A stretch of DNA of 64,000 nucleotides from Actinomycetota bacterium (GTDB lineage: Bacteria > Actinomycetota > Thermoleophilia > Gaiellales > F1-60-MAGs149). The notes under the pieces are model-generated. The model was not told the DNA's origin. It searched no databases and saw nothing but the letters and a program-made list of their open reading frames with translations. Of this stretch, positions 20,288 to 55,594 are shown piece by piece. Location of the stretch: assembly GCA_009885805.1 (NCBI GenBank), contig VFJZ01000005.1, positions 74,999 to 138,998 of the forward strand. Reading direction: 5' to 3'. Both the position numbers and the translations under genes were made by a program. The stretch's first letter is position 1; each line of letters opens with the position of its first letter.

Positions 20288-21065
20288 CGGCCGCCTGCAG
20301 GGCAAGGTCGCGATCGTGACGGGCGCGGCGAGCGGCATCGGCCGCGCGATCGCCGAGCGCTACGGCGCCGAGGGTGCGGCGGTCGTCGTCGCCGACCGAA
20401 ACGAGCCGGGAGCCGAGGCGGTCGCGGCGGGGATGGACGAGGCCCTCGGCGTCGCCTGCGACGTCGCCTCGCGGCCCGACTGCGACCGCCTTTTCAAGGC
20501 GACGCTCGCCCGCTTCGGTACCGTCGACGTGCTCGTCAACAACGCCGCGCTGACCGCAACGGAGCGTCACTTCCTCGAGGCCGACGACGACTGGTGGGAC
20601 TCGATCGTCGCGGTCAACCTGACGGGCGTCTACAACACGTCCGTGCGCGCCGCCCGGCTGATGGCCGCGAACCGCTCCGGCGTCATCATCAACCTGTCCT
20701 CCGGCGGCGCCTCGCGTGCCCACCGCGGCAACGCCGCCTACGACGCGGCCAAGGGCGGCGTCGAGGCGCTGACGCGCGCGCTCGCGCTCGACCTCGGCCC
20801 GTACGGCGTCCGCGTCTGCACCCTGATCCCCGGGTCGATCGACACGAAGGGACTGCCCGACGAGACCCGCCGCCAGCGCGGCGTCAACATCCCGCTGGGA
20901 CGCGTCGGCGAGCCGGACGAGCTCGCGGGACCGGCGGTGTTCCTCGCCTCCGACGACGCGCGCTACGTGACCGGCTCGACCGTGATGTCGGACGGCGGCA
21001 TGCTCGCCCAGCAGCGCTCCGCCACCGTCGACATCTTCGGGCTGGAGAAGTTCCCGGGCCTGTGA
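20280..21065 (+). CDS. Short-chain dehydrogenase/reductase (SDR)
   Basis: 'GKVAIVTGAASGIGRAIA', 'NNAA' and 'YDAAKGGV' motifs. 261 aa. Confidence 0.9.
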   Translation: MPDGRLQGKVAIVTGAASGIGRAIAERYGAEGAAVVVADRNEPGAEAVAAGMDEALGVACDVASRPDCDRLFKATLARFGTVDVLVNNAALTATERHFLEADDDWWDSIVAVNLTGVYNTSVRAARLMAANRSGVIINLSSGGASRAHRGNAAYDAAKGGVEALTRALALDLGPYGVRVCTLIPGSIDTKGLPDETRRQRGVNIPLGRVGEPDELAGPAVFLASDDARYVTGSTVMSDGGMLAQQRSATVDIFGLEKFPGL

Positions 21066-23119
21066 GGCGCGCGGGCGCCGACATCGGCGGCACGTTCACC
21101 GATCTGATCCTCGTCGACGACGACACCGGCTCGTTCCGGGTCGCGAAGGCGCTGACGACGCCCGACGACCCGTCGCGCGCCGTCGAGGAGGTACTCACGA
21201 GCGCCGCCGCCGCCGCGGGCGTGTCCGTGTCCGCGATCGACCAGGTGATCCACGGCACGACGCTCGTCACCAACGCGATCATCGAACGCAAGGGCGCGAT
21301 GACCGTGCTCCTCGCGACGGCCGGCTTCCGCGACGCGATCGAGATCGGCCGCGAGGCGCGGTTCGAGCTGTACGACATCGACCTCGAGCTGCCCGAGCCG
21401 CTCGTGCCGCGCTACCTGCGCTTCGACGTGCCCGAGCGGACGCTCTCGGACGGAACAACGCTGCGCGAGTTGGACGTCGCGTACGTGGAACGACTCGCCG
21501 CGGAGCTCGCCGAGGCCGGCGTCGAGGCGGTCGCGATCGCCTTCCTGCACAGCTATCTGAACCCCGCGGCCGAGCGCGCAGCCCGGGAGGCGATCGCCCG
21601 CGTCGCGCCGGCGCTGCGCGTCTCGATCTCCTCGGAGGTGGTCGCGGAGCTGCGCGAGTACGAGCGAACGTCGACAACGATTGCCAACGTGTACGTTCAG
21701 GGTCGCACAGAGGAATACCTCCGCGGGCTGCAGGCCCGTCTCGCCCGGCTCGGCTTCACCGGCGCCTTCCGCCTGATGCTGTCGGCGGGAGGGATCGCGA
21801 CGCCGGAGACGGCGATGCGCTTCCCGGTGCGCCTGCTCGAGTCCGGCCCCGCCGCCGGCGCCCTCGCCGCCGCCCATCACGGCACGGCGGCCGGGATCGA
21901 CGACCTGCTCAGCTTCGACATGGGCGGCACGACCGCGAAGTTCGCCGTCATCGTCGACGGCGCGCCGCTCACCGCCGGCGAGTTCGAGGTCGACCGCCGT
22001 TACCGCTTCAAGCGGGGTTCCGGCCTGCCCGTCAAGGTCGAGGTGATCGAGATGATCGAGATCGGCTCCGGCGGCGGTTCGATCGCGCGGATCGACTCGC
22101 TCGGATTGCTCCGGGTCGGGCCCGACTCGGCGGGCGCCGCACCCGGCCCGGTCGCCTACGGCCTCGGCGGCAGCGAGCCGACGGTGACCGACGCCGACCT
22201 CGTCCTGGGCTACCTCGACCCGGACTGGTTTCTCGGCGGCCGGATGGCGCTCGATCTCGCCGCGGCGCGCGAGGCGATCCGCACGCGCATCGCGGAGCCC
22301 CTCGGTCTCTCCACCGAGGCTGCGGCCTGGGGCATCCACCAGGCGGTGAACGAGTCGATGGCGAACGCGGCCCGCGTCCACGTGCTGGAACGCGGGCGTG
22401 ATCCGCGCGGCCTGCCGGTGCTCGTCTTCGGCGGGGCCGGCCCGGTCCACGGGCACCGTGTCGCGAAGGCGCTCGGCGCGCCGGCGATGATCGCGCCGCT
22501 CGGCGCGGGCGTGCTGTCCACCGTCGGCTTCCTGGTCGCGCCGCTGGCGTTCGACTTCGTCCGCTCCTGGCCGGCCGCGCTCGCGGGGCTCGACTGGACG
22601 CGGGCGCGCGCCCTGCTCGCGGAGATGGAGGCCGAGGGCGCGGCCGTGCTCGCGACGTCCGGCGTCCCCGCGGCGGAGACCACGCACGTCCGCGAGGCGG
22701 ACATGCGCTACGCCGGGCAGGGACACGAGATCCGCGTGCCGTGGCCGGCCGGGGACGATCCGGCGGCGGTGCGGGAGGCGTTCGAGACCGAGTACCGGCG
22801 ATTGTACGGACGGCTCGGCCCGGACGGCGTCGCGCTCGAGATCGTCTCCTGGCGTGTGCGGTCGAGCGGGCCACGACCGTCGGTCAACCTCGTCGTCGTC
22901 GGCGAGGCGGGCGAGGCGCGCAAGGGCACCCGTGACGCCTGGCATCCGGAGCGCGGCGGGATGGCGCCGACGCCGGTCTTCGACCGCTACCGGCTCGCGC
23001 GCGGTGCGACGCTCGAGGGGCCGGCGATCGTCGAGGAGCGCGAGTCGACGGTCGTGGTCGGCCCGGACACCTCCGCCCGGGTCGACGAACGTTGGAACCT
23101 GATCGTCACGCCGCGCTGA
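21062..23119 (+). CDS. hyuA: Hydantoinase A / oxoprolinase family (HyuA, N-methylhydantoinase A-like)
   Basis: The GTG at 21062 overlaps the SDR stop (GTGA). Sequence: 'GADIGGTFTDLILVDDDTGSFRVAKALTTPDDPS...LLSFDMGGTTAKF...'. 685 aa. Confidence 0.9.
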   Translation: MRRAGADIGGTFTDLILVDDDTGSFRVAKALTTPDDPSRAVEEVLTSAAAAAGVSVSAIDQVIHGTTLVTNAIIERKGAMTVLLATAGFRDAIEIGREARFELYDIDLELPEPLVPRYLRFDVPERTLSDGTTLRELDVAYVERLAAELAEAGVEAVAIAFLHSYLNPAAERAAREAIARVAPALRVSISSEVVAELREYERTSTTIANVYVQGRTEEYLRGLQARLARLGFTGAFRLMLSAGGIATPETAMRFPVRLLESGPAAGALAAAHHGTAAGIDDLLSFDMGGTTAKFAVIVDGAPLTAGEFEVDRRYRFKRGSGLPVKVEVIEMIEIGSGGGSIARIDSLGLLRVGPDSAGAAPGPVAYGLGGSEPTVTDADLVLGYLDPDWFLGGRMALDLAAAREAIRTRIAEPLGLSTEAAAWGIHQAVNESMANAARVHVLERGRDPRGLPVLVFGGAGPVHGHRVAKALGAPAMIAPLGAGVLSTVGFLVAPLAFDFVRSWPAALAGLDWTRARALLAEMEAEGAAVLATSGVPAAETTHVREADMRYAGQGHEIRVPWPAGDDPAAVREAFETEYRRLYGRLGPDGVALEIVSWRVRSSGPRPSVNLVVVGEAGEARKGTRDAWHPERGGMAPTPVFDRYRLARGATLEGPAIVEERESTVVVGPDTSARVDERWNLIVTPR
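22991..23090 (+). repeat. Direct repeat copy 1 (the functional 3' end of hyuA)
   Basis: My ungapped hand alignment to 23931..24030 (offset exactly 940 bp) gives 85/100 identical bases. Confidence 0.85.
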
Positions 23120-23434
23120 GCAGTTCGACCGCGCGGCGGATGCCGAGCGCGGCGGCGATCCTCACAACCCGCAGGGGCGCCCGCCTTGGAGCCTGAGCCT
23201 CGAGCGTCCCGGGTCATCCATGGCGCCCTTCCGGTGGTATCGTCCCGAACGGCTTCGTGGAAACGCTCGACGAACATCCGAGCGCGTCGGGTGGCACTGT
23301 CATTGCTGCGACTGCGGGTGGCCATCGATGACGCCGCGTCGGATGTGCAGCGCGATCAAGTCGCGGCGCTCCTACGACGAGGCCGCTCCGCTGATCCTCG
23401 AGCGTGTCGCCGACCGCGCGGCTCAAGGAGTGGC

Positions 23435-23674
23435 GTGAGCCCGACCGTCTTCCGTGAAGGCCCGTTCCGGTTCTTCTTCTTCTTGCGTGAGGAGTCGCGA
23501 CTGCACATTCACGTTTCCTCGGCAGACGGCGAGGCCAAGTTCTGGCTCGAGCCCACGATCGAGGTTGCGCGCAGTCACGGGCTCACCGCCCTCGACCTGC
23601 GACGCGCGACGGAAGCAATCGAACGACACGAGGAGAAGATCCGGGATGCCTGGACCAGTCACTTCGGCACCTGA
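23435..23674 (+). CDS. DUF4160 domain protein (putative toxin-antitoxin-like pair member)
   Basis: The GTG at 23435 gives 79 aa: 'VSPTVFREGPFRFFFFLREESRLHIHVSSADGEAKFWLEPTIEVARSHGLTALDLRRATEAIERHEEKIRDAW'. The 'HIHV...AKFWL' core is typical of DUF4160. Confidence 0.8.
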   Translation: MSPTVFREGPFRFFFFLREESRLHIHVSSADGEAKFWLEPTIEVARSHGLTALDLRRATEAIERHEEKIRDAWTSHFGT

Positions 23675-24362
23675 GGTAACTAACATCTCGCTGCATGGCT
23701 TCTGGCTGTTCATCGACGAACGTGAACTCTTCCTGCCCTTCGATAACTTCCCGTGGTTCAGGCGCGCCGCAATCGACGCGATCCTGCGCGTTGAGCGGCC
23801 GCATCCCGACCACCTCCGTTGGCCGGATCTCGATGTTGACCTGACAATCGATTCTCTCGAGCACCCCGGGGACTACCCCCTTGTGGCGAAAATCTGAGAC
23901 GAGAAGTCCCGCACGAGTCATCCAAAGCCTCGGCTCGCGCCCGGCGCGACGGTCGGGGGCTCGGCGATCGTGGAGGAACGCGAGTCGACAGTCGCGGTCG
24001 GCCCTGACACCTCGGCGCTGGTCGACGAGCACGAGCGGGCAGTCGAGGTCCTCAGCGAGGGCGACATAGGCCGCGGCGTAGGCGGTCAGGTTGTTGCGGA
24101 GCGCCCAGACGCGCGAGGCGCGCGGCGTCACTGGAAAGCGGCGAATGCGAGCGCGCCGAAGATCCTCGATCGCGAATTCGGCGCGCGACCGGTCGAGTTG
24201 CCCACCGCGGACCTGCTCGCGAAGCAGATTCAGTACCTCGTAGTCGATGAGGTCGGGAGCGGTGATCGATCTGGCGCGCCGAACGCGCACCCACACGCCG
24301 TCGCCGTAGGGCCCGTCGTCGGCGAGCACGGGGCCGAGCACCGAGGCGTCGATGACGATCAC
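23583..24362 (-). CDS. vapC: PIN-domain VapC toxin; native C-terminus apparently replaced, so the ORF reads through antisense DNA
   Basis: The GTG at 24362 overlaps the vapB stop (GTGA). Sequence 'VIVIDASVLG...DLIDYEVLNLL...LTAYAAAYVALAEDLDCPLVLVD' carries the PIN acidic residues. From about residue 111 the ORF is antisense to hyuA repeat copy 2 and then to DUF2442, ending only at 23583 (259 aa against about 130 expected). Confidence 0.7.
   Translation of the reverse strand: MIVIDASVLGPVLADDGPYGDGVWVRVRRARSITAPDLIDYEVLNLLREQVRGGQLDRSRAEFAIEDLRRARIRRFPVTPRASRVWALRNNLTAYAAAYVALAEDLDCPLVLVDQRRGVRADRDCRLAFLHDRRAPDRRAGREPRLWMTRAGLLVSDFRHKGVVPGVLERIDCQVNIEIRPTEVVGMRPLNAQDRVDCGAPEPREVIEGQEEFTFVDEQPEAMQRDVSYLRCRSDWSRHPGSSPRVVRLLPSRVAGRGR
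23646..23897 (+). CDS. DUF2442 domain protein (partner of DUF4160)
   Basis: 83 aa from the ATG at 23646, overlapping the upstream gene by 29 nt: 'VTNISLHGFWLFIDERELFLPFDNFPWFRRAAIDAILRVERPHPDHLRWPDLDVDLTIDSLEHP', the typical DUF2442 pattern. Confidence 0.75.
   Translation: MPGPVTSAPEVTNISLHGFWLFIDERELFLPFDNFPWFRRAAIDAILRVERPHPDHLRWPDLDVDLTIDSLEHPGDYPLVAKI
23931..24030 (+). repeat. Direct repeat copy 2 (displaced, diverged remnant of the hyuA 3' end)
   Basis: It translates in the hyuA frame as 'RLAPGATVGGSAIVEERESTVAVGPDTSALVDE', against 'RLARGATLEGPAIVEERESTVVVGPDTSARVDE' in hyuA. Homology stops at 24030, 29 nt short of the equivalent of the hyuA stop. Confidence 0.85.
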
Positions 24363-24595
24363 CGGGACGGATCGTCGCGGTCGGCGCGAATGAGACGCAC
24401 CGCGTCCTCGCCGGAGAGCGATCCGCCGCGCCTCGTCTCGATACGCGCGAGCCACTCCGCGACCGTCGGCTGCGTCGCCCGCTCCTCGAGGTGGAGGCGG
24501 AGCAGTTCCTGAAGGCTCTGCCCGTTGGCCGCCGCGCGCACCCGGAGCCGGCGCGCGGCATCCTCGGAGACGTTTCGTACCTGGAGTGTCGCCAT
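24359..24595 (-). CDS. vapB: VapB antitoxin (ribbon-helix-helix, Arc/FitA-like)
   Basis: 78 aa from the ATG at 24595: 'MATLQVRNVSEDAARRLRVRAAANGQSLQELLRLHLEERA'. Confidence 0.8.
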   Translation of the reverse strand: MATLQVRNVSEDAARRLRVRAAANGQSLQELLRLHLEERATQPTVAEWLARIETRRGGSLSGEDAVRLIRADRDDPSR

Positions 24596-24632
24596 GCATG
24601 CAATCGAGCGCTGTTCGCGCGTCTTTGCAACC

Positions 24633-47071: not shown

Positions 47072-49615
47072 CTACTCGTACTGGAGGGCCTGGAGCACGT
47101 CCAGCCGCGCCGCGCGGCGCGCGGGGAGGATCGCCGCCAGCACGCCGCAGACGACGGCGGCGAGCAGGTAGATGACGATCTGCGCGACGGGTAGGACGAA
47201 CCCGAGCCCGTCGACCGCGCGCGTCGCGAGGAAGCCGAAGACCATCCCGACGGCGACGCCGATGACCGCGCCGATGACCGCTGTGATGACGCTCTCGTAG
47301 CGCACGATCCAGCGCAGCTGCCGTCGCGTCGCGCCAACTGCGCGGAGCAGACCGATCTCACGCGTCCGCTCGTAGATCGACAGGACAAGGGTGTTCACGA
47401 GGCCGAGCAGTGAGATCACCACGCTGAAAGCGAGTAGCGCGTAGAGCAGTGCCAGGAACTGGTCGAGCTGGCGCTCGAAGCGCTGGAGGGCTGCGCGGTT
47501 CGACTCCGCCCGGACCTGCGGGAACGCAGTCTCGAGCGCGTCCACCACCGCCTGATCCGTCGCCTTGCGATCGACGCCCTCGCCAAACCGGACGAACGCG
47601 ATCCCGATCTCCGGCTTCTCGCCGAGTGAGTCGTACGCGTCCCGCGAGACGATGAACGTCTTGAAGATGGTCGGGGCGGAGTAGACACCACGAACGGTGA
47701 ACGTCGCCGAACGTCCCGATTCGGTGGCGACGGCAAACGTCGAGCCGACCGTCAGCGATCGCCCCTTCGCCCACTCCCTCTCGACGAGCGCGCCGTCGGC
47801 GCCCAGTTGCGTCACGAGGCTGTCGTCGCCGTTGACCCAGTCCATGCGATACGACTTCGTCAGCTCCGGCCCGGTCGCGGCGAGGGTGTCGTCGCGGCCG
47901 TCGATTCGCACCGCGAGCGTCTCGACCGCCACGACGGCGGACACACCCTCGACGCCCGCGACCGTCCCGATGACATCGGGCGGCATCACGTCGAACGACT
48001 TCGACTGGACGAGCATGTCCGACAGCAACGACGTCGAGAGCGTGCTGCGGAGCTGCTCCTTGAAGCCGGTCGTGAAGATCGCCGCCCACGTGATGAGCGC
48101 AACGGAGATCATCAGCGCCGCTGCCGTCACCGCCGTCCGGCCGGGGTTGCGGACGGTGTTCTCCGTCGCAATTCGCCCGGGCAGACCCGCCGCGCGAAGC
48201 GACCGACCGATGAGCCGCGCGAGTGGTGGGACGAGCCAGCGAGAACCCATTGCGACGCCGACCATCGTCAGCAGGACGCCAGCTCCCATCGCCGCGAGCG
48301 CCTGCCGGGGAGTACCGTCCGTGAAGAAGCCGATCGACGCCACGCCAAGGCCGAGCAGCACCATGACGGGTGCCAGCCAGGGCACGAACCGACCGCCGCG
48401 GGCCGGTGGCGGCGCGGTGCCCTCGCGGACGGCGGCGATCGGCGGGACGCGAGTCGCACGCAGGCCGGGTGCGAGGGCGGCGGCCAGCGTCACACCGACG
48501 CCGACAAGGAGGCAGATCGCGACGGTCCGCGGCGCGATCGCGAGATCGGCGCCCGGCAGACCGAACCCGAGGGCATCGAAGGCGACCAGGAGTAGGCTCG
48601 CAAAGCCGAGGCCGGCGACGATGCCGACCACCGTCGCGACGAGCGATACGACGATCGCCTCCCCGAGAACGCTCGCGAGGATCTGTCGGCGCGTCGCGCC
48701 GAGCGTCCGCAGCATCGCAAGCTCGCGGACGCGGTGGCCAATCGTCATCGAGAAGGCGTTGAAGATGATGAAGGCCGAGACGAAGATCGCGACGCCCGCG
48801 AAGGCGAGGAGGGCGGGACGGAGGAAGCCGTTGATCGAGTCGGAGATGCGCCTGGCCTCGGCGACGGCACGCTCACGGCCGGTCTCGACCGTGAGGTCGG
48901 CGGGCAGGGCCGCGGTGAGCCGTCGCCGCAACTCCTCGACCGAGACACCCTCGTCCGCGGCGACGTCGATCTCGTGGACCAGCCCCCGGCTGCGGAACCA
49001 CCGCTGCACGTCGTTGATGTCGGCCAGCACGACGGTCGCCCCGCCGAAGTCAACAGCTGACGTGAAGATGCCGACGATCGTCACCGGCTGTGCCCGCTGG
49101 TCGGTCGCCATCAAGGCGGTGTCGCCGACGCGGAGGTCACCGCGATCGGCGACCGACTTGAGGATCGCGACCTCACCCGGCGCCTCGACCTGCCTCCCCT
49201 CGATGTAGGTGCCGGTGTCGAACGGCGCGCCGGTCGAGTTGAAGACGAGCGGCGGCGCTCCGCCCGTCGGACCGAGGAACTTCGACTCGCCATCTCGCTC
49301 GATGACGAGGCCGCCGAAGCCCTGGATGAGTGGCTGCGCGACGGCGACACCGTCCACGGCAATGACGTCGATCAGCACCGACTGGTCGAACGGGACGATG
49401 TCAGCGTTGTCGTCCGTCGCGAACGCGGCTGCTTTCGTCACGACGATATCGGTCGTGGCGCGCGTCTCGACGAAGATGTTCTCGAACGCCGTCCCGATCT
49501 GGTCGGTCAGCGCGAAGGTGCCGGAGATCATCGCGACGCCGAGGACGATCGCGAGGGTTGTCAGGGTGCTGCGCAGCTTCCGCGCGAGCATTCCCCGCAG
49601 CGTCACGCGCCGCAC
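47072..49615 (-). CDS. ABC transporter permease, double FtsX domain (MacB-like), tandem copy A
   Basis: 847 aa from the GTG at 49615 (homologous to the start of copy B). By eye it is roughly three quarters identical to copy B along its whole length. Confidence 0.85.
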   Translation of the reverse strand: MRRVTLRGMLARKLRSTLTTLAIVLGVAMISGTFALTDQIGTAFENIFVETRATTDIVVTKAAAFATDDNADIVPFDQSVLIDVIAVDGVAVAQPLIQGFGGLVIERDGESKFLGPTGGAPPLVFNSTGAPFDTGTYIEGRQVEAPGEVAILKSVADRGDLRVGDTALMATDQRAQPVTIVGIFTSAVDFGGATVVLADINDVQRWFRSRGLVHEIDVAADEGVSVEELRRRLTAALPADLTVETGRERAVAEARRISDSINGFLRPALLAFAGVAIFVSAFIIFNAFSMTIGHRVRELAMLRTLGATRRQILASVLGEAIVVSLVATVVGIVAGLGFASLLLVAFDALGFGLPGADLAIAPRTVAICLLVGVGVTLAAALAPGLRATRVPPIAAVREGTAPPPARGGRFVPWLAPVMVLLGLGVASIGFFTDGTPRQALAAMGAGVLLTMVGVAMGSRWLVPPLARLIGRSLRAAGLPGRIATENTVRNPGRTAVTAAALMISVALITWAAIFTTGFKEQLRSTLSTSLLSDMLVQSKSFDVMPPDVIGTVAGVEGVSAVVAVETLAVRIDGRDDTLAATGPELTKSYRMDWVNGDDSLVTQLGADGALVEREWAKGRSLTVGSTFAVATESGRSATFTVRGVYSAPTIFKTFIVSRDAYDSLGEKPEIGIAFVRFGEGVDRKATDQAVVDALETAFPQVRAESNRAALQRFERQLDQFLALLYALLAFSVVISLLGLVNTLVLSIYERTREIGLLRAVGATRRQLRWIVRYESVITAVIGAVIGVAVGMVFGFLATRAVDGLGFVLPVAQIVIYLLAAVVCGVLAAILPARRAARLDVLQALQYE

Positions 49616-49617
49616 TG

Positions 49618-49653
49618 CTACTCGAGCCCCATGACGACGTCCCGGATCTGATC
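49618..49653 (-). other. Vestige of the ABC ATPase 3' end carried along by the tandem duplication
   Basis: The minus strand reads 'gat cag atc cgg gac gtc gtc atg ggg ctc gag tag' = DQIRDVVMGLE*. The real ATPase ends 'DQILDVVKGLE*' at 52247. Both are followed 2 nt later by the permease GTG. Confidence 0.7.
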
Positions 49654-49706
49654 GGCGATGGCGGCCGAAGGAGGCATGGAATGAGCTTACAGCGGCCCCG
49701 CCGCCG

Positions 49707-52244
49707 TCACTCGTACTGCAGGGCGTGGAGGACGTCGAGCCTGGCCGCCCGCCGAGCCGGGAGAATCGCAGCGAGCACTCCACAGACGACGGCCGCGACG
49801 AGGAACAGCACGACCTGCACCACCGGCACGACGAAGCCGAGTCCGTCGATCGCCCGGGTCGCGAGGAAGCCGAAGACCATCCCGACCGCGACGCCGATGA
49901 CGGCGCCGATGATCGAGGTGATGACGCTCTCGTAGCGGACGATCCGGCGCAGCTGGCGACGGGTCGTGCCGACGGCGCGAAGCAGGCCGATCTCGCGGGT
50001 TCGCTCGTAGATCGCCAGCACGAGCGTGTTGACGAGCCCGAACAGGGAGATCACGACGCTGAAGGCGAGCAGGGCATACAGCAGCGCGAGGAACTGGTTC
50101 AGCTGACCCTCGAAGCGATCGAGGGCAGCGCGGTTCGACTCGGCACGAACCTGCGGATAGGCGGCGTCAACGGCAGCGGTGACAGCCTTTTCCGTGCTCG
50201 CCGCATCGATGCCTCCGGCGAAGCGGACGAACGCGATGCCGATCTCGGGTTTCTCGGCGATCGCCGCGTACGCGTCCCGGGAGACGATGAACGACTGGAA
50301 GAAGGTTGCGTCGGAGAAGACGCCCTGCACGGTGAACGTCGCGGAGCGTCCGGCCTGCGTGTCGACGGCGAAGGTCGACCCGATCGCCAGGGAGCGGGTC
50401 TGGGCCCAGTCCTTCTCAACGAGGGCGCCGTCCACGCCGAGCCGCGCCACGAGGCTGTCGTCGCCGGTGACCCAGTCGATCTTGTACGCCTCCGTCAGCT
50501 CGGGCCCGGCGGCCGCGAGCGTGTCCTCGGTGCCGTCCACACGGACTGGCGTCGCCTCGATCGCCACAACGGTCGAGACCCCCTCGACAGCGGCCGCGAC
50601 GTCGACGACGCCGGGCGGCATCGCGCCGAACGACTTGGACTGGATCAGCATCTCGGAGGTGAACGAGGTGCCGAGCGCGCTGCGGATCTGCTGCTTGAAG
50701 CCAGTCGTGAAGATCGCTGCCCAGGTGATCAGGGCGACCGTGATCATGAGCGCAGCGGCCGTGACGGCGGTGCGACCGGGGTTCCGCACGGAGTTCTCGG
50801 TCGCGATCTGTCCCGGCAGGCCTCGCAGTGGGCGGCCGACGAGCCGCGCGATCGGTGGGACGAGCCATCGCGATCCCATCGCGACCCCGACCATCGTCAC
50901 CAGCACGCCGGCACCCATCGCGAACAGCACCTGCTGCGCGGTGCCGTCGCCGAAGAAGCCGATCGAGGTCACGCCGACGCCGATCAGCACGAGCAGCGGA
51001 GCCAGCCACGGGACCAGTCGTCCCGAACGTGCGACGGGAAGCGCGGCGCCCTCACGCACGGCCGCGATCGGCGGTACGCGCGTCGCGCGCAGCCCGGGCG
51101 CGAGCGCGGCCGCCAGCGTGACGCCGACACCGACCGCGAGGCAGATCGCGACCGTTCGGGGGGCCACCGTGAGATTCGAGCTGGGCAGGCCGAACCCAAC
51201 CGCATCGAACAGCGCCAGGAGCACCGAGGCGAAGCCGAGGCCGGCGACGATGCCGACGGCGGTCGCGAGGAGGGAGACCACGACCGCCTCCGCCATGACG
51301 CTGCCGAGCACCTGGCGGCGCGTCGCGCCCAGCGTCCGCAACATCGCGAATTCACGAACGCGCTGCCCGATCGTCATCGAGAAGGCGTTGAAGATGATGA
51401 AGGCCGACACGAAGACCGCGACGCCGGCGAAGGCCAGCAGCGCCGGGCGCAGGAAGCTGTTGATCGAGCCGGAGATGCTCGCTGCCTCGGCGAGACCGCG
51501 TTCACGCCCGGTCTCGACGGTGAGGTCGGCCGGCAGGGCGGCGGCGATGCGGGACTTCAACACCTCACCCGCGACGCCGTCCTTCGCGGCCACGACGATC
51601 TCGTGGGCCTTGCCCTCGCTGCGGAACCACCGCTGCACGTCGGTCGTCTCGCCGAGCACTACCGTCGCTCCGCCGAAGTCTGCCTTCGACGTGAAGACAC
51701 CAACGATCGTGACGGGTTCGGCACCCGTGTCCGTCGCCATCTGCGCCGCATCGCCGACGCCGACGTCGCCGCGGTCGGCGACCGCTTTCAGAATCGCGAC
51801 CTCACCGGGCGCAGCGACCGGGCGGCCCTCGATGTAGGTGCCCGTATCGAATGGCGGTCCGGCGGAGTTGAAGACGAGCGGCGGGGCGCCGCCGGTCGCG
51901 CCCAGAAACTCGGGCTTGCCGTCCTTGACGACGATCAGTCCGCCCAGGCCCTGGACGACGGGCTGCGCGACCTCGACACCCTCGACGGCCCGCACCTGCT
52001 CGATCAGCGACTCGTCGAAGGGCACGATGTCGCCCGTCTCGTCACTCGAGAACGTCGCCGCCTTCGTCACGACGACGTCGGTCGTCGCCCTCGTCTCGAT
52101 GAAGATGTCCTCGAAGGCCGACCCGATCTGGTCGGTCAGCGCGAACGTGCCGGAGATCATCGCGACGCCGAGGACGATCGCGAGGGCGGTCAGGGTGCTT
52201 CGCAGCTTGCGGGCAAGCATCCCGCGCAGGGTCACGTGCCGCAC
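49707..52244 (-). CDS. ABC transporter permease, double FtsX domain (MacB-like), tandem copy B
   Basis: 845 aa: 'MLARKLRSTLTALAIVLGVAMISGTF...' and 'LRAVGTTRRQLRRIVRYESV...'. It starts 2 nt after the ATPase stop. Confidence 0.9.
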   Translation of the reverse strand: MRHVTLRGMLARKLRSTLTALAIVLGVAMISGTFALTDQIGSAFEDIFIETRATTDVVVTKAATFSSDETGDIVPFDESLIEQVRAVEGVEVAQPVVQGLGGLIVVKDGKPEFLGATGGAPPLVFNSAGPPFDTGTYIEGRPVAAPGEVAILKAVADRGDVGVGDAAQMATDTGAEPVTIVGVFTSKADFGGATVVLGETTDVQRWFRSEGKAHEIVVAAKDGVAGEVLKSRIAAALPADLTVETGRERGLAEAASISGSINSFLRPALLAFAGVAVFVSAFIIFNAFSMTIGQRVREFAMLRTLGATRRQVLGSVMAEAVVVSLLATAVGIVAGLGFASVLLALFDAVGFGLPSSNLTVAPRTVAICLAVGVGVTLAAALAPGLRATRVPPIAAVREGAALPVARSGRLVPWLAPLLVLIGVGVTSIGFFGDGTAQQVLFAMGAGVLVTMVGVAMGSRWLVPPIARLVGRPLRGLPGQIATENSVRNPGRTAVTAAALMITVALITWAAIFTTGFKQQIRSALGTSFTSEMLIQSKSFGAMPPGVVDVAAAVEGVSTVVAIEATPVRVDGTEDTLAAAGPELTEAYKIDWVTGDDSLVARLGVDGALVEKDWAQTRSLAIGSTFAVDTQAGRSATFTVQGVFSDATFFQSFIVSRDAYAAIAEKPEIGIAFVRFAGGIDAASTEKAVTAAVDAAYPQVRAESNRAALDRFEGQLNQFLALLYALLAFSVVISLFGLVNTLVLAIYERTREIGLLRAVGTTRRQLRRIVRYESVITSIIGAVIGVAVGMVFGFLATRAIDGLGFVVPVVQVVLFLVAAVVCGVLAAILPARRAARLDVLHALQYE

Positions 52245-52246
52245 GA

Positions 52247-52998
<752 letters not shown>

Positions 52999-53069
52999 GC
53001 CCGCAGGGTACCGCCGGTCGACGGCACGGAACGTCGTCCGAGCGGCTGATCTGCCTCGTTCTTGCGGCT

Positions 53070-53164
53070 GATCAGCGGTACACGTACACCGTCTCGCCGA
53101 CGGGCGACTGGCGGTAGAGCCAGTCCGCCGCCCACATCGGGACGCGCGCGCAGCCGTGGCTGGC
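53070..53164 (-). repeat. Direct repeat copy 1: displaced remnant of the L,D-transpeptidase 3' end
   Basis: My ungapped alignment to 54372..54466 (offset 1302 bp) gives 86/95 identical bases. It still encodes '...HGCARVPMWAADWLYRQSPVGETVYVYR*'. Confidence 0.85.
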
Positions 53165-53208
53165 GATGCTGTTGTTGATGTGATACTCTTTACATGAACT
53201 ACTGAAAT

Positions 53209-53218
53209 GGGGGGGGGG
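53209..53218 (+). repeat. G10 homopolymer immediately upstream of the islet's first gene
   Basis: Counted directly: g at 53209-53218, followed by 'agcacaATG' (ATG at 53225). The tract ends in an SD-like GGAG. An upstream ATG at 53207 would read through it as MGGGST. Confidence 0.95.
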
Positions 53219-53224
53219 AGCACA

Positions 53225-53758
53225 ATGAAGATCCTTTCCAAGCGCAATGCCGTGGTCGTCGCGGTTGTCGTTGTCGGTTCCATCGCCGCGTTCGGGTCGG
53301 CACTCGCCTCGTCCGAGGACGAGGACGTCAAGGTCGATGCGTCGTGGGCGGTCGAGGCGGTGGCCACGCAGCGCGCAGCGGAAGAAAACCTGCCGCCGTC
53401 GCCGCCGGCCGCTGCGACGGCGGTGGGCGCGGAACTCGCGGCTCTCGAGGCGGCGAACGGGCACGCCGCGCCACCGCTTCTCCCGCCCACCGTTGACGAG
53501 AACGGCCTCGAGGTGAAAATCGGGAGCGCGCAGGAACCGCCGCGATTCGTTCCTGGCGGTGCGGTGCGTATCTACCCGGATACGCCCGAAGGTCTCAAGT
53601 ACGGCCTGACCGGAGCGCTTGAGGACCAGACGACGCTGCTCTGCAGGTATCCGAACGGCAACCTCGGGGGCATGGAGATCCTGCGGCGGGCAGGCGCGAC
53701 GGGTGACCCGTTCCCACCGCAGAACCCCAATGCCCGGAGTTGGGAGCGGCCATGCTGA
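53225..53758 (+). CDS. Secreted/membrane-anchored hypothetical protein (islet cargo)
   Basis: 'MKILSKRNAVVVAVVVVGSIAAFGSALASSEDED...' looks like a signal peptide or anchor. A Pro/Ala-rich linker follows, then a ~90-aa domain with no family I recognise. Confidence 0.65.
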   Translation: MKILSKRNAVVVAVVVVGSIAAFGSALASSEDEDVKVDASWAVEAVATQRAAEENLPPSPPAAATAVGAELAALEAANGHAAPPLLPPTVDENGLEVKIGSAQEPPRFVPGGAVRIYPDTPEGLKYGLTGALEDQTTLLCRYPNGNLGGMEILRRAGATGDPFPPQNPNARSWERPC

Positions 53759-54307
53759 GCTGCCGGCCTCGCCTCACGCTCTGCATGTTCGCACTGCTCG
53801 GACTATCACTATCGGCGCCTACGGCGTCGGCCATACACCCCGGGCCCGGTCACCTTGCAACCTTGGGGCTGGCTGTTCCGCGGGTCTACTTTGTCGACAC
53901 GACAGGCCCGAACTGGCCGGTCACGGCGGCGGCGCAGAAATGGAACGAATCGACTGCCGTCGGCGCCTATCGCGTGTCTGCCTGCCCGTCGACGTCCTAC
54001 TACTGCCTGCCCACCGTAGCCGTAAACCTGGGGACCTCTCCATGCGATGGCTCGATCGACGGCGTGTTCTTGTTCAACGTGTCGTCGGCGGGCCACTGGA
54101 TGCGTGACAGCCGGTTCAGACATCGTGTTCTGTAACGACACGCCGTCGGATCGCCGCCTGTCGACCGCGTGCCACGAGGAAGGCCACCCTCTCGGGCTAG
54201 GCCACAGAGGAAACGTCCTTGGCACCTGCATGAGGACTGGAACTATCTACCCGCAGTACCCGGACGCTCACGACTACGCACAGCTGGTGTCCGTCTACAA
54301 CCACTGA
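53752..54307 (+). pseudogene. Secreted metzincin-type zinc metalloprotease, split by one frameshift
   Basis: The ATG at 53752 (ATGCTGA overlap with the upstream stop) gives the signal peptide 'MLSCRPRLTLCMFALLGLSLSAPTASA', and this frame ends at 54135. A second frame (54047..54307) carries 'IVFCNDTPSDRRLSTACHEEGHPLGLGHRGNVLGTCM', that is HExxHxxGxxH plus a Met-turn-like 'CM'. The frame switch lies somewhere around 54070-54110. Confidence 0.7.
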
Positions 54308-54371
54308 TCGTCCCCGTCGGTGGCGCGAACTCCCCCGGTGGGGGTTCGCGCCATCGACTGGGCGCTGCCTG

Positions 54372-54466
54372 GATCAGCGGTAGACGTAGACGGTCTCGCC
54401 GACCGGGGACTGGCGGTACAGCCAGTCCGCCGCCCACATCGGAATCCGCGCGCAGCCGTGGCTGGC
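54372..54466 (-). repeat. Direct repeat copy 2: functional 3' end of the L,D-transpeptidase gene
   Basis: See 53070..53164. It encodes '...HGCARIPMWAADWLYRQSPVGETVYVYR*'. Confidence 0.85.
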
Positions 54467-55534
54467 CGGGTAGGCGGGCACCGGCGCGAAGCCGTGGATG
54501 GCGAAGCTGTTCCCCTTGAACGTCAGCGTCCGGTAGAGGATCGCCGGCCCGAGCCACGTGCGGGTGCTCGGCGCCTTCCAGCGGATGCGGTGGCGGCCCT
54601 CGGGCGTGTTCCCCGTCGCGCCGGTCGAGGTCGGGATGACGTGCCGGACACGACCGTTCCTGACGACGAGCAGGACCTGCCGGGTCTTGTCGATCTCGAT
54701 GTGGAGACCGTGGCCCCGGAAGCGCGGCCGGATCCGTCGCGCGGTCTGCAGCTTGCGCCAGTCGTCCGCGTCGATCACGTAGGTGCGGGGCAGGCGGTAG
54801 GCCTTCTGGAAGGCGACGACCGCATCGGTCGCGTCGCGGGAAAGGATCGAGGCGATGCCCGGCGTGTGGAACCCGAGTTCCTCGAGTCGGCGCAGCAGGG
54901 CCCGCACGTCGGCGCCGCGCGAGCCGGCCGCGAGCCGGCGGCCAGCGGCGCGGAAGGAGCGGTGGACGGTGCGTGCGGCGAGCCCGTCGGACGCCGGCAC
55001 CTCGACCTCGGCTCGGAAGCGCTCGACGCCGGGGGCGGAGAGCCGTACCCGCGCCCGCCCGTCCCGGATCTGCACTCGCCGCGCCGCGAGACGGTTCGAG
55101 CCGCGCAACGTCCGCGCGATCACCTCGCCGGTCCAGGTCGAGGGCTGGATCTGGATGTGCAGCGTCGCGCCGAGGTACGCGTTCGCCTTCGTGATGCGCG
55201 TGATCACCCGCGGCACGACCACCAGTGCGGCCGGCGTGCTGACGGCGCCGTCCGCCAGTCGCGCCGTGACGGCGCCGCCGCGGCTCGCCTGGAACGTCGC
55301 GGCAAACGCCCCGGCCACATCGGTCATGGTCGTTCCGACGTCCGTCCCGTCAATCGCGATCGTCAGCGTGAGGCCGGCGACGGCTGGCTGGACCGCACCC
55401 GAGAGGTCGACGGGGCCGTGCCACTCGACCTCGGGCGCGGGCAGCGAGATCGAGATGGTCTCCCCGGCCGCGGAGGCGGCGGCCGGGAGTCCGAGCGTGA
55501 GGAGCAGGGCGATCAGGGTCCGTTGCACGGTCAC
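54374..55534 (-). CDS. L,D-transpeptidase (YkuD domain) with a peptidoglycan-binding domain
   Basis: GTG at 55534 or 55528. The signal peptide is 'QRTLIALLLTLGLPAAASAAG'. The PG-binding-like segment is 'GSRGADVRALLRRLEELGF...AVVAFQKAY', and the catalytic 'SHGCARIP' is present. The upstream part of track ORF 54374..56320 is shadow over the next gene. Confidence 0.85.
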   Translation of the reverse strand: MTVQRTLIALLLTLGLPAAASAAGETISISLPAPEVEWHGPVDLSGAVQPAVAGLTLTIAIDGTDVGTTMTDVAGAFAATFQASRGGAVTARLADGAVSTPAALVVVPRVITRITKANAYLGATLHIQIQPSTWTGEVIARTLRGSNRLAARRVQIRDGRARVRLSAPGVERFRAEVEVPASDGLAARTVHRSFRAAGRRLAAGSRGADVRALLRRLEELGFHTPGIASILSRDATDAVVAFQKAYRLPRTYVIDADDWRKLQTARRIRPRFRGHGLHIEIDKTRQVLLVVRNGRVRHVIPTSTGATGNTPEGRHRIRWKAPSTRTWLGPAILYRTLTFKGNSFAIHGFAPVPAYPASHGCARIPMWAADWLYRQSPVGETVYVYR

Positions 55535-55594
55535 CAGATCGGCGAGAGGGGCCCTGGGGTTGAGCACGAGTGATCGGCGTGCTACACCGGCGGT

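What the first reader, a model, noticed from the sequence alone, without database searches (positions are those of the whole stretch)
53070..54466. Second cargo islet, after the L,D-transpeptidase gene, bounded by a 95-bp duplicate of the ldt 3' end that differs almost only at synonymous sites
Bases 54372..54466 (the ldt 3' end including the stop) recur at 53070..53164. I count 86/95 identities with no gaps. In the ldt frame the 9 differences comprise 7 synonymous third-position changes and one Ile-to-Val codon change. Both copies still end '...HGCAR(I/V)PMWAADWLYRQSPVGETVYVYR*'. That pattern means the displaced copy evolved as functional coding sequence, presumably in another lineage or on the element, before or after the insertion. 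The 1.2 kb between the copies begins with strikingly AT-rich DNA, has lower-GC codon usage, and encodes a secreted protein and a secreted metzincin. No recombinase gene is present.
Basis: seen in the sequence. Interest (0 to 1): 0.7.

Follow-up and report, generated by a model that had tools for sequence, protein, structure and literature searches.

The report
Insertion scar beside the ldt gene
A two-gene operon for a secreted mini-protease and its partner was inserted long ago just after a cell-wall enzyme gene, leaving a dead 95-base copy of that gene's end; it is a fixed scar of gene gain rather than an active mobile element, and a second scar of the same design lies 30 kb away.

Summary
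Bases 53070-53164 repeat the ldt 3' end (54372-54466) at 86/95 with no gaps: 7 synonymous changes plus one Ile/Val codon. Chance cannot explain it. An independent assembly (L053, ldt 90% identical) has the same architecture, so it is not a misassembly.

Four more distant syntenic relatives have empty sites (ldt, spacer, ABC ATPase). The cargo is a conserved two-gene operon: a small secreted partner plus a roughly 190-aa minimal metzincin. The metzincin fold is confirmed, but the gene is frameshifted in this window.

- A four-way comparison puts 5 of the 9 differences on the functional gene's branch and 3-4 on the stub's branch.
- A clock test shows the stub was coding until recently, so the two copies are different functional ldt alleles brought together by recombination. 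The locus is strongly mosaic (dS 0.06-0.9).
- There is no recombinase, no inverted ends, no other copy of the islet, and no evidence of current mobility.

The same architecture occurs at 22991-24028, where a 98-nt hydantoinase-A 3' stub sits beside a DUF4160/DUF2442 pair. This favours a generic host mechanism: homology-anchored single-crossover insertion.

This is a new instance of a known kind of event, of moderate interest.

The parts
54374..55567 (-). Full-length L,D-transpeptidase gene (ldt), 397 aa. It has a signal peptide, a PG_binding_1 domain and a YkuD catalytic domain.
   Evidence: Pfam YkuD 1.9e-17 and PG_binding_1 3.4e-06. The 397-aa product is identical to P0001 from an NCBI contig of 157,718 bp.
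54372..54466 (-). Repeat copy A: the last 30 codons of the functional ldt, its stop codon and 2 further nt.
54312..54362 (.). Strong GC-rich hairpin between the convergent ldt and metzincin genes. It is probably a bidirectional terminator (inferred).
   Evidence: Inverted repeat I2 has 23-nt arms, 87% complementary. Folding gives -46.3 and -42.9 kcal/mol on the two strands, z = -4.8 and -5.1. The simple T-tail terminator scan did not call it.
53752..54307 (+). Minimal secreted metzincin-like gene (about 184 aa once repaired). In this window it is split by a 1-nt insertion at about 54121 into ORFs 53752-54135 and 54047-54307.
   Evidence: HEEGHPLGLGH motif. The frameshift was located against the intact 184-aa L053 orthologue. 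Family alignment A3 has invariant C-HE..H and CM. The AlphaFold model has pLDDT 90.7, and every top Foldseek PDB hit is a metzincin. dN/dS against L053 is 0.385.
53225..53758 (+). Small secreted partner protein, 177 aa, with signal peptide MKILSKRNAVVVAVVVVGSIAAFGSALA. Its stop overlaps the metzincin start codon.
   Evidence: ORF; identical to P0271. It is 57% identical by BLASTP to L053's 151-aa orthologue and 72% in the MAFFT alignment, with an indel-rich middle. It matches no Pfam or NCBIfam family. A partner ORF precedes the metzincin gene in all 7 other family members sampled.
53165..53224 (+). AT-rich (47% GC) upstream region of the cargo operon, ending in a G10 run next to the start codon. 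It is presumed to be the promoter and RBS, and it abuts the stub directly.
   Evidence: It differs from L053 at 2 of 60 positions, and the G10 run is present in both assemblies. The consensus promoter scan found nothing here.
53070..53164 (-). Repeat copy B: the displaced ldt 3' stub (30 codons, the stop codon and 2 further nt). It has no in-frame start nearby and is a non-coding remnant.
   Evidence: It differs from L053's stub at 5 of 95 positions, the same rate as the flanking non-coding DNA.
52999..53069 (-). 71-bp spacer between the stub's stop codon and the ABC ATPase start.
   Evidence: It differs from L053 at 5 of 71 positions. It cannot be aligned with the 230-370 bp spacers of the empty sites.
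52247..52998 (-). ABC transporter ATPase, the native downstream gene. In this window it is split by a 1-nt deletion in or next to a short C run near 52617-52628, which is probably an assembly error.
   Evidence: ABC_tran matches both halves. L053 has an intact 250-aa orthologue, 98% identical over residues 1-128.
49707..52244 (-). MacB/FtsX-type permease of the same ABC operon. It completes the conserved synteny.
   Evidence: FtsX 1.8e-36 and MacB_PCD 4.2e-20. The same synteny is seen in L001, L025, L053 and L054.
22991..24028 (+). Parallel islet with the same design. The hydantoinase-A 3' end (22991-23088) is followed by the rest of the gene, a DUF4160 + DUF2442 gene pair, and then a 98-nt hydantoinase-A stub (23931-24028, 86% identical).

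Best explanation
This is the fixed scar of one old gene-gain event, not an active element.

**Proposed history**
1. In an ancestor shared with the L053 organism, a foreign piece of DNA entered between ldt and the ABC-transporter operon. It carried a two-gene operon (small secreted partner plus minimal metzincin) attached to an ldt 3' end.
2. Entry was by recombination anchored in the last ~95 bp of ldt.
3. The topology is Campbell-type: a small circular or re-circularised molecule of about 1.3 kb, holding 95 bp of ldt homology, crossed over once with the resident gene.
4. This left an intact ldt, then the cargo, then a displaced 95-bp ldt stub joined to the native downstream flank.

**Most likely agent**
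I think the host's general recombination machinery did this, not a dedicated integrase.

**Why the differences look synonymous**
The stub is now decaying neutrally. Its near-synonymous differences from the neighbouring gene arise because the two copies are different functional ldt alleles. Later homologous recombination replaced the block from mid-ldt to the start of the secreted-protein gene with divergent alleles in at least one of the two lineages.

**Shown**
- The insertion, the duplication and the empty sites.
- The mosaic divergence.
- The stub's recent coding past and its current neutral rate.
- The nature of the cargo.

**Inferred**
- The circular intermediate.
- RecA rather than an integrase.
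- The order of the recombination events.
For: **It is an insertion**
- Empty sites occur in four syntenic relatives.
- The site is occupied, with the identical junction, in independent contig L053.

**The topology fits a single crossover**
- A direct duplication of the homologous segment flanking an insert is the experimentally observed product of a single crossover with a re-circularised molecule. That study found duplications of 109-950 bp, whereas classical HFIR gave deletions (PMC3240628).

**A generic mechanism rather than a specific recombinase**
- A second islet in the same 64 kb has the same design but a different target gene, different cargo and no shared sequence motif. It also has no recombinase. 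Its stub is 98 nt.
- These two stubs and one tandem gene duplication are the only self-similarities in the window.
- No recombinase is present in the islet, in L053 or in the neighbouring genes.
- The islet has no terminal inverted repeats.

**Recombination is pervasive at this locus**

| Segment (window vs L053) | dS |
|---|---|
| ldt, 5' half | 0.13 |
| ldt, 3' half | 0.54 |
| metzincin gene | 0.89 |
| secreted-protein gene, codons 34 to end | 0.86 |
| secreted-protein signal peptide | 0.06 |
| ABC ATPase, codons 1-170 | 0.11 |
| ABC ATPase, codons 171 to end | 0.46 |

- Third-position divergence shows no step at the repeat edge.

**The stub is neutral now but was coding recently**
- It differs from L053's stub at 5/95, against 5/71 and 2/60 for the flanking non-coding DNA.
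- Only 3-4 changes lie on its branch, where 26-33 are expected for a long-dead copy.

**The stub travels with the native flank**
- The stub sits in the low-divergence block that continues into the ABC gene.
- The full gene's 3' end sits in the high-divergence block that continues into the cargo.

**The cargo is a real operon that appears in varied contexts**
- dN/dS is about 0.39 for both genes.
- The same two-gene unit occurs in 7 other family members.
- One of these contexts lies directly downstream of a TnpC-like DUF6262 gene.
Against: - Only two occupied genomes exist, so the order and number of recombination events cannot be fixed.
- 95 bp is slightly below the 109-bp minimum duplication seen in the E. 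coli experiments. It is also a poor RecA substrate if the partners already differed by 5-6%.
- The repeat ends 2 nt after the stop codon and starts at the most conserved (SHGC) motif. That is also what an integrase att site mimicking a gene end would look like.
- The model needs donor lineages in which the cargo already lay directly downstream of ldt. It therefore does not explain the very first juxtaposition.
- No circular form or donor genome was found.
- Gene conversion that keeps the stub similar to a functional allele cannot be excluded as an alternative to a recent coding past.
Confidence: 0.45

Rival explanations
1. This is a degenerate integrase-type integrative islet (CIME-like). On this reading, a site-specific element whose attP mimicked the last 95 bp of ldt integrated into the gene's 3' end and restored the reading frame. 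It later lost its integrase module, leaving attL and attR around two cargo genes. An integrase acting in trans might still mobilise it.
For: - The direct repeats include the target gene's 3' end and stop codon, and ldt stays intact.
- The repeat begins at the most conserved nucleotides of the gene (the SHGC motif is invariant in all relatives) and ends 2 nt past the stop codon.
- The repeat contains an 8-6-8 palindrome (GGACTGGC-N6-GCCAGTCC) that resembles a recombinase core site.
- A repeat length of about 95 nt lies within the range of att identity segments of actinomycete integrative elements (own knowledge: pSAM2 58 bp, SLP1 112 bp).
- In L059-L061 a homologous cassette lies next to a Tn554-type tnpC-like gene.
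Against: - No recombinase is present in the islet, in L053 or in the neighbours.
- The same architecture at a second locus, with a different target and no shared motif, would need a second lost integrase.
- The high-divergence block extends about 400 bp upstream of the repeat into ldt, instead of ending at a crossover inside it.
- No other copy of the islet exists in 5.8 billion proteins or in the metagenome scans.
- The palindrome is largely forced by the codons for D-W...Q-S.
Confidence: 0.22
2. This is classical homology-facilitated illegitimate recombination of a linear fragment. On this reading, a donor fragment reading [ldt 3' part - cargo] recombined homologously in mid-ldt. Its non-homologous end joined illegitimately 95 bp upstream of the resident ldt stop codon, which displaced the native 3' end.
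For: - The high-divergence block starts in mid-ldt and runs through the cargo, as expected for a homologous anchor followed by foreign DNA.
- The islet|stub junction is shared by both genomes and has no homology basis.
- HFIR is the model proposed for the displaced 3' ends in T6SS effector arrays, and the same paper cites Rhs C-terminal displacement (PMC5361080).
Against: - Where it has been measured, HFIR typically couples insertion with deletion of recipient DNA, not duplication (PMC3240628).
- No 3-10 bp microhomology is visible at the junction...AGCATC|GCCAGC against ...TACCCG|GCCAGC.
- The block boundaries seen today may come from a later allelic replacement rather than from the founding event.
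Confidence: 0.15
3. This is a purely local rearrangement. On this reading, the cargo was already resident, and the stub arose by an intragenomic duplication (tandem duplication followed by deletion, or a replication template switch). Ordinary mutation and gene conversion then shaped the differences.
For: - The reconstructed ancestor of the two stubs differs from the reconstructed ancestor of the two full copies at only 1 of 95 sites.
- A tandem duplication of the neighbouring FtsX permease gene shows that this region does duplicate.
Against: - Each genome's own full copy differs from its stub at 9 sites (window) or 7 sites (L053), mostly on the functional gene's branch. A recent in-genome copy predicts about 1 change there.
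- There is no second copy of any sequence downstream of the repeat.
- This model does not explain the low-GC foreign cargo, which is absent from four syntenic relatives.
Confidence: 0.08
4. The repeat is an assembly artefact caused by mixed strains in a metagenome-assembled genome.
For: - The source is a MAG-type contig, and the window carries probable indel errors.
- Related long-read MAGs show many frameshifts.
Against: - An independent assembly from another source and sample (JGI 3300082540) has both copies, the same order and the identical islet|stub junction.
- The junction has no shared k-mers that could cause a mis-join.
Confidence: 0.01

Closest known systems
Single-crossover (Campbell-type) integration of re-circularised DNA, which duplicates the homologous segment (E. 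coli conjugation experiments, PMC3240628)
   Same: - The product has a direct duplication of the homologous target segment flanking the inserted DNA.
- No dedicated recombinase is needed.
- The duplicated length equals the residual homology on the circle.
   Different: - The experimental duplications were 109-950 bp of lacZ in E. coli, under selection.
- Here there are natural 95- and 98-nt stubs at gene 3' ends in an uncultured actinobacterium.
- No circular intermediate has been observed, and whether RecA was involved is untested.
attL/attR repeats of integrative islands and AICEs that insert into the 3' end of a gene and carry a surrogate 3' end (own knowledge: pSAM2, SLP1; CIME-type integrase-less derivatives)
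   Same: - The direct repeats include the target's 3' end.
- The target gene stays intact.
- The cargo has lower GC.
- Relatives have empty sites.
   Different: - No integrase is present.
- The cargo is only 1.2 kb.
- The divergent block extends beyond the repeat.
- The twin islet has an unrelated target.
- There is no evidence of excision or of the element elsewhere.
C-terminal displacement in Rhs, CDI and T6SS effector loci, proposed to occur by HFIR (PMC5361080, which cites Jackson et al. 2009)
   Same: An incoming module anchored by homology to the conserved gene pushes the resident 3' end downstream, where it remains as an orphan fragment.
   Different: - Those loci are polymorphic toxin systems in which the displaced 3' end encodes a toxin tip and immunity gene, and displacement is recurrent.
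- Here the displaced piece is 30 codons of a housekeeping L,D-transpeptidase.
- The incoming cargo is not a variant of the target gene.
Snapalysin (M7) and karilysin/MMP-type minimal metzincins
   Same: - The HExxHxxGxxH zinc site is present.
- A conserved Met follows it (SCM in the family).
- The secreted catalytic domain is about 130-160 aa.
- The model matches 1kuh (TM 0.70 normalised to the target), 4in9 and MMP-7.
- The protease gene is paired with a small secreted partner. This recalls the protein inhibitors crystallised with these two proteases (sermetstatin with snapalysin, 4hx3; potempin A with karilysin, 8b2q).
   Different: - It scores below the curated cut-offs of every Pfam and NCBIfam metzincin model.
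- Sequence identity to solved structures is 12-18%.
- It has additional invariant Cys, His and Asp residues (A3).
- The partner has no detectable similarity to any Pfam or NCBIfam family, and its role is unknown.

Membership tests
Integrase-type integrative element / genomic island | Direct repeats (attL/attR) flank the element, and one of them overlaps the 3' end of the target gene | tested here: met
   95-nt repeats at 53070-53164 and 54372-54466. The second is the ldt 3' end and its stop codon.
Integrase-type integrative element / genomic island | The element encodes a site-specific recombinase (integrase) | tested here: not met
   Only two cargo genes lie between the repeats. L053 also has none. 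Neighbouring genes are a methyltransferase, a tRNA-synthetase-like gene, a LOG-family gene, HIBADH and the ABC/FtsX operon.
Integrase-type integrative element / genomic island | Related genomes have unoccupied target sites | tested here: met
   L001, L025, L054 and L055 have ldt, a 230-370 bp spacer and then the ABC ATPase. These relatives are distant, however (ldt 66-74% aa).
Integrase-type integrative element / genomic island | The same element occurs in other genomes or sites, or there is evidence of excision or circular forms | tested here: not met
   No other close copy of either cargo protein was found. The junction DNA and the cargo protein were absent from the metagenome scans. Excision cannot be tested without reads.
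Transposon / insertion sequence | A transposase gene, terminal inverted repeats and a short (2-14 bp) target-site duplication | tested here: not met
   There is no transposase, no terminal inverted repeats at the islet ends, and the duplication is 95 nt.
Campbell-type single-crossover insertion | A direct duplication of one contiguous target segment flanks the insert, with nothing deleted from inside the duplicated segment | tested here: met
   The duplication is ungapped and 95 nt, and both copies are complete to the stop codon plus 2 nt. The same topology occurs at 22991-24028.
Campbell-type single-crossover insertion | A circular donor molecule, and dependence on homologous recombination | not testable with these tools
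   This needs read-level data or genetics. There is literature precedent only (PMC3240628).
Homology-facilitated illegitimate recombination | 3-10 bp microhomology at the illegitimate joint, with insertion coupled to deletion of recipient DNA | tested here: not met
   No microhomology is visible at the islet|stub junction. Recipient DNA is duplicated rather than deleted. Possible loss of part of the ancestral spacer cannot be judged because the spacers do not align.
Metzincin metallopeptidase | An HExxHxxGxxH/D zinc-binding motif followed by a conserved Met-turn methionine | tested here: met
   The window has HEEGHPLGLGH and L053 has HESGHGLGLTH. Across 26 family members E141, H144, C159 and M160 are invariant, and G143 and G147 are nearly invariant.
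Metzincin metallopeptidase | The metzincin catalytic-domain fold | tested here: met
   The model has pLDDT 90.7 and pTM 0.84. 55 PDB matches have E <= 1e-3, and all 50 listed are metzincins: serralysin, MMP-7, karilysin, snapalysin (1kuh, TMt 0.70) and fragilysin. The profile search of PDB sequences also listed only metzincins (best 60 of 77 shown), but weakly (E >= 0.019).
Metzincin metallopeptidase | A score above the curated cut-off of a named family (Pfam M10 or reprolysin; NCBIfam snapalysin) | tested here: not met
   Peptidase_M10 scores 20.2 bits against a cut-off of 24, Reprolysin_5 scores 20.5 against 27, and snapalysin scores 14 against 300. It belongs to an uncurated family with 273 representatives at E <= 1e-3.
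Metzincin metallopeptidase | An intact reading frame in this window | tested here: not met
   A 1-nt insertion at about 54121 separates the N-terminal 127 aa from the zinc site. It is not in a homopolymer, so whether it is a real pseudogene or an assembly error is unresolved.
YkuD L,D-transpeptidase (the target gene) | A YkuD domain above the Pfam cut-off, with the catalytic His-Gly-Cys motif | tested here: met
   YkuD scores 64.7 bits against a cut-off of 23.4. SHGC is present in the full gene and also in the stub.

The most novel reading that the evidence does not exclude
In this actinobacterial lineage, small two-gene operons (toxin-antitoxin-like pairs, or a protease with its partner) may be gained routinely by a recombinase-free route. 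In that route, a short circular DNA carrying about 95-100 bp of the 3' end of a host gene integrates by a single crossover. Each gain would then leave a gene-end stub of characteristic length. The stub and the gene end would form a pair of direct repeats that allow the operon to loop out and re-enter related genomes. That would amount to a homology-guided cassette system without its own enzymes. Two such scars, with 95- and 98-nt stubs, in 64 kb are compatible with this idea.
Probability: 0.12. Interest if true: 0.65.

Novelty: new member of a known kind. Interest (0 to 1): 0.35.

Why it matters
**The general question**
How small accessory operons that carry no mobility genes move between bacterial genomes is poorly documented. 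Toxin-antitoxin pairs and secreted enzyme/partner pairs are typical examples. Here two independent insertions in one 64-kb window carry the same tell-tale mark: a ~95-100-nt stub of the upstream gene's 3' end. With an occupied relative and four empty relatives, the event can be reconstructed in unusual detail.

**What would follow if the stubs are general**
A genome-wide survey could test whether they are a general signature. If they are, they would offer:
- a simple sequence marker for recombinase-free gene gain;
- a way to estimate how often homology-anchored single-crossover insertion happens in nature.

**A methodological point**
A 'synonymous-only' difference between a gene and its truncated copy does not show that the truncated copy is under selection. 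Adding one more genome showed that most changes lie on the functional gene's branch and that the locus is a recombination mosaic.

**The cargo**
It defines an uncurated family of about 190-aa secreted metzincins that are always paired with a small upstream partner.

Tried and rejected
**Searches that gave nothing useful**
- The Rfam scan of 52500-55000 found only sub-threshold chance hits.
- The consensus promoter and terminator scan found nothing in the AT-rich segment or at the hairpin.
- The spacers downstream of ldt in the empty sites do not align with either the stub's or the full copy's downstream sequence, so the native copy could not be identified this way.
- The look-up of the window's own ldt protein found no contig on record.
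- Word-indexed protein searches with the metzincin and with the secreted-partner alignment returned only the two known genomes.
- An exact-match metagenome scan for the 24-nt islet|stub junction gave 0 hits, and a protein-pattern metagenome scan with the partner alignment gave 0 confirmed hits.
- A second ldt C-terminal stub was sought in 52 related GTDB loci, and none was found.
- The two islets share only chance 9-11-mers, so they have no common motif.
- No terminal inverted repeats were found at the islet ends.
- ARAGORN found no tRNA in the window or in L056, although the L056 tail looked like a tRNA by eye.

**Ideas considered and rejected**
- The stub is under purifying selection as DNA or as a regulatory element. 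Rejected because it diverges from L053 at the same rate as the flanking non-coding DNA.
- The stub is translated. Rejected because there is no nearby in-frame start, and the only extended ORF runs antisense through the secreted-protein gene.
- The stub was recently gene-converted from the adjacent gene. Rejected because neither genome's stub shares any of its own gene's private changes.
Full report
**1. The observation**

The repeat is real and is as described.
- The repeat finder reports one 95-nt ungapped direct repeat, 53070-53164 and 54372-54466, at 91% identity.
- Read in the ldt frame on the minus strand, the 9 differences are seven synonymous third-position changes plus one ATT/GTC codon (Ile/Val).
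- Similarity begins abruptly at the Ala codon before the catalytic SHGC motif and ends 2 nt after the stop codon.
- At the window's base composition, about 4e-26 such repeats are expected by chance.
- Nine randomly placed substitutions would leave one or fewer amino-acid changes with P = 4e-5.
- The first 60 nt of the islet are 47% GC against 71.5% for the window. Islet GC3 is 0.77-0.80 against 0.84-0.93 in the neighbouring genes.

**2. Anatomy**

The target gene (54374-55567, minus strand) is an L,D-transpeptidase with PG_binding_1 and YkuD domains. Reading downstream in its direction, the locus contains the following.

| Order | Coordinates | Feature | Evidence |
|---|---|---|---|
| 1 | 54312-54362 | Strong hairpin, -46 and -43 kcal/mol on the two strands, z about -5 | |
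| 2 | 53752-54307 | HExxHxxGxxH protein gene, convergent with ldt | |
| 3 | 53225-53758 | Signal-peptide protein gene whose stop overlaps the start of the previous gene | |
| 4 | 53165-53224 | AT-rich upstream segment ending in a G10 run | |
| 5 | 53070-53164 | The 95-nt ldt stub | |
| 6 | 52999-53069 | 71-bp spacer | |
| 7 | 52247-52998 and 49707-52244 | ABC ATPase and MacB/FtsX permease operon | |

Two genes carry 1-nt frameshifts in this window.
- The ABC ATPase is shifted in or next to a short C run. L053 has it intact, so this is probably an assembly error.
- The metzincin gene is shifted at about 54121, not in a homopolymer. This one is unresolved.

**3. The cargo**

- Once repaired, the second gene gives a 184-aa secreted protein.
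- It scores below every curated cut-off (Peptidase_M10 20.2 bits against 24; snapalysin 14 against 300).
- An exhaustive HMMER search finds 273 cluster representatives at E <= 1e-3, mostly about 190 aa.
- Their alignment has invariant C-HE..H, C-M, D and H positions.
- An AlphaFold model (pLDDT 90.7) matches only metzincins in the PDB: serralysins, MMP-7, karilysin and snapalysin 1kuh.
- In all seven other family members whose contigs I retrieved, a small ORF of about 90-190 aa immediately precedes the metzincin gene, overlapping its start in all but one locus. The pair is therefore a conserved operon.
- The contexts of these homologues differ:
  - an ECF sigma factor with a MacB/FtsX ABC transporter (L057);
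  - an ECF sigma factor (L065);
  - directly downstream of a DUF6262 gene (L059-L061). DUF6262 is annotated as TnpC of Tn554-type transposons (PMC11947258) and is reported within a mobile element that also carries two tyrosine recombinases (PMC10868621).
- Between the window and L053 both cargo genes have dN/dS of about 0.39. They are real genes under relaxed constraint.

**4. Relatives: empty and occupied sites**

- A scan of one genome per GTDB species found 52 related ldt loci. Only L001 and L025 (ldt 66-67% aa) share the synteny orf-HIBADH-ldt-ABC-FtsX. Both lack the cargo and have a single ldt 3' end.
- Two further relatives, L054 and L055 (71-74% aa over the C-terminal part), are also empty. 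In them ldt is followed by about 230 bp and then the ABC ATPase.
- The only close relative in 5.8 billion proteins is P0002 (90% aa) on JGI contig L053.
- L053 has the complete architecture: ldt, both cargo genes, the stub and the ABC ATPase. Its islet|stub junction is identical to the window's.
- This excludes misassembly. It also shows that the junction arose once, in a common ancestor.

**5. What the synonymous pattern means**

With four copies (full and stub, in each genome) there are 15 variable sites.

| Where the change lies | Sites | Kind |
|---|---|---|
| Private to the window's functional copy | 5 | all synonymous |
| Private to L053's functional copy | 4 | all synonymous |
| Private to the window's stub | 3 | third positions |
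| Private to L053's stub | 2 | both would be non-synonymous |
| Separating both stubs from both genes | 1 | Ile/Val; outgroups have Ile |

- For the 3-4 changes on the stub's own branch the bias is not significant (P = 0.14-0.04).
- Since the two genomes split, the stub has diverged at 5/95. This is the same rate as the adjacent spacer (5/71) and the AT-rich segment (2/60). It is now evolving neutrally.
  - The two functional copies differ at dS of about 0.7 over these codons, and at 0.54 over the ldt 3' half.
  - A copy that had been non-coding for that long should carry 26-33 changes. The stub lineage carries 3-4 (P < 1e-6).
  - The stub was therefore part of a functional ldt allele until shortly before the two stubs diverged.
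  - The full-length 3' ends now beside it in both genomes are different alleles.

**6. A recombination mosaic**

Synonymous divergence between the window and L053 varies about tenfold along 5.4 kb.

| Segment | dS |
|---|---|
| ldt, 5' half | 0.13 |
| ldt, 3' half | 0.54 |
| metzincin gene | 0.89 |
| secreted-partner body (codons 34 to end) | 0.86 |
| secreted-partner signal peptide (codons 1-33) | 0.06 |
| ABC ATPase, codons 1-170 | 0.11 |
| ABC ATPase, 3' end | 0.46 |
| FtsX permease, N-terminal part | 0.62 |

- Third-position divergence in ldt rises gradually from about 54950 and shows no step at the repeat edge at 54466.
- The stub lies in the low-divergence block that continues into the ABC gene, which is the native flank.
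- The functional 3' end lies in the high-divergence block that continues into the cargo.
- The simplest reading is that the stub is the resident allele's displaced end, and the ldt 3' half plus cargo has been exchanged as a unit with divergent lineages that also carry the cargo.

**7. A second scar of the same design**

- A sensitive self-comparison of the window finds only three similarities: this repeat, a tandem duplication of the FtsX permease gene, and a 98-nt repeat at 22991-23088 and 23931-24028.
- The 98-nt repeat is a piece of the 3' end of hydantoinase A (20594-23119), duplicated downstream of a low-GC DUF4160 + DUF2442 gene pair.
- Beyond that stub lie a PIN-like ORF, a FitA-like antitoxin gene, and then hydantoinase B.
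- This stub is more decayed: 14 differences, of which 6 are non-synonymous.
- The two islets share no sequence motif, and neither has a recombinase.

**8. Mechanism**

- A direct duplication of a target segment flanking an insert is the product of a single crossover between the chromosome and a circular molecule that carries that segment.
- In E. coli conjugation experiments designed to detect homology-facilitated illegitimate recombination (HFIR), true HFIR gave insertion with deletion. Most recombinants were instead single crossovers with re-circularised molecules, and these duplicated 109-950 bp of the homologous segment (PMC3240628).
- The architecture here matches that product. The recurrence at an unrelated gene with unrelated cargo argues for a generic host process rather than two separately decayed integrase elements.
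- I therefore favour homology-anchored single-crossover insertion (0.45).
- The rivals are:
  - an integrase-type islet that lost its integrase (0.22). Supporting points are that the repeat ends at the stop codon and starts at the most conserved motif, and that it contains an 8-6-8 palindrome;
  - classical HFIR (0.15). This is the model proposed for displaced 3' ends in T6SS arrays and cited there for Rhs loci (PMC5361080);
  - a purely local duplication (0.08);
  - an assembly artefact (0.01).
- Whichever mechanism made it, the evidence that it is a fixed scar rather than a currently mobile element is good. I estimate about 0.8.

**9. Verdict**

It is an insertion, and the two copies are two once-functional alleles.
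- The att-bounded mobile islet is not supported, and most of the synonymous signal comes from the functional gene.
- It is a new instance of a known kind of event.
- Interest is moderate, and comes mainly from the twin scar, which makes the route of small-operon gain testable.

Noticed in passing
window 22991-24028 (context 20594-26411): A second islet has the same architecture. A 98-nt piece of the hydantoinase-A 3' end (22991-23088) is duplicated at 23931-24028 (86% identity; 8 synonymous and 6 non-synonymous differences). It lies downstream of a low-GC DUF4160 + DUF2442 gene pair. The stub stops 30 nt short of the gene's stop codon. A PIN-like ORF and a FitA-like antitoxin gene follow on the minus strand, and then hydantoinase B.
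   Followed up: partly
window 47074-49653 and 49709-52282: The MacB/FtsX permease gene is tandemly duplicated (2.6 kb, 78% nucleotide identity; ORFs 47072-49783 and 49707-52244). The syntenic relative L054 shows a single permease region, fragmented into several ORFs.
   Followed up: partly
window ~52617-52628 and ~54121: The ABC ATPase has a 1-nt frameshift in or next to a short C run, which is probably an assembly error. The metzincin gene has one that is not in a homopolymer, so it may be a real pseudogene. Both genes are intact in L053. Related long-read MAGs (L001, L025, L054) show many similar frameshifts.
   Followed up: partly
window 53209-53218; L053 3901-3910: A G10 homopolymer lies immediately upstream of the secreted-partner start codon and has the same length in two independent assemblies. 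It may serve as the ribosome-binding region and could be a slippage-prone site.
   Followed up: no
window 54407-54428 (and 53105-53126 in the stub): Inside the repeat there is a perfect 8-6-8 palindrome, GGACTGGC-TGTACC-GCCAGTCC (minus-strand reading), within the codons for ADWLYRQS. It resembles a tyrosine-recombinase core site, but the amino-acid sequence largely forces it.
   Followed up: no
window 53042-53051 and 53064-53073: GCGGCTGATC occurs twice, 22 bp apart, in the spacer between the stub and the ABC ATPase start. The second copy overlaps the stub's stop codon. Only one copy is intact in L053.
   Followed up: no
L057 1-5527; L065 1-2351: Homologous partner + metzincin operons sit next to ECF sigma-factor genes in L057 and L065. 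In L057 the operon is also 1.4 kb from a MacB/FtsX + ABC ATPase operon whose ATPase is about 62-64% identical to the window's. This hints at a possible functional link between this protease pair and such transporters or envelope-stress regulation.
   Followed up: no
L059 220-648 (also L060, L061): A DUF6262 (Tn554 TnpC-like) gene lies directly upstream of a homologous partner + metzincin operon on three short contigs. This suggests the operon can be transposon cargo elsewhere. The contigs are too short to show the recombinase genes.
   Followed up: partly
L001 ~9270-9400; L025 ~9270-9350: The ldt-to-ABC spacers of the empty sites contain a conserved GGTGCCTGGCAC-containing element. It appears as a tandem ~49-bp duplication in L001 relative to L025.
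   Followed up: no
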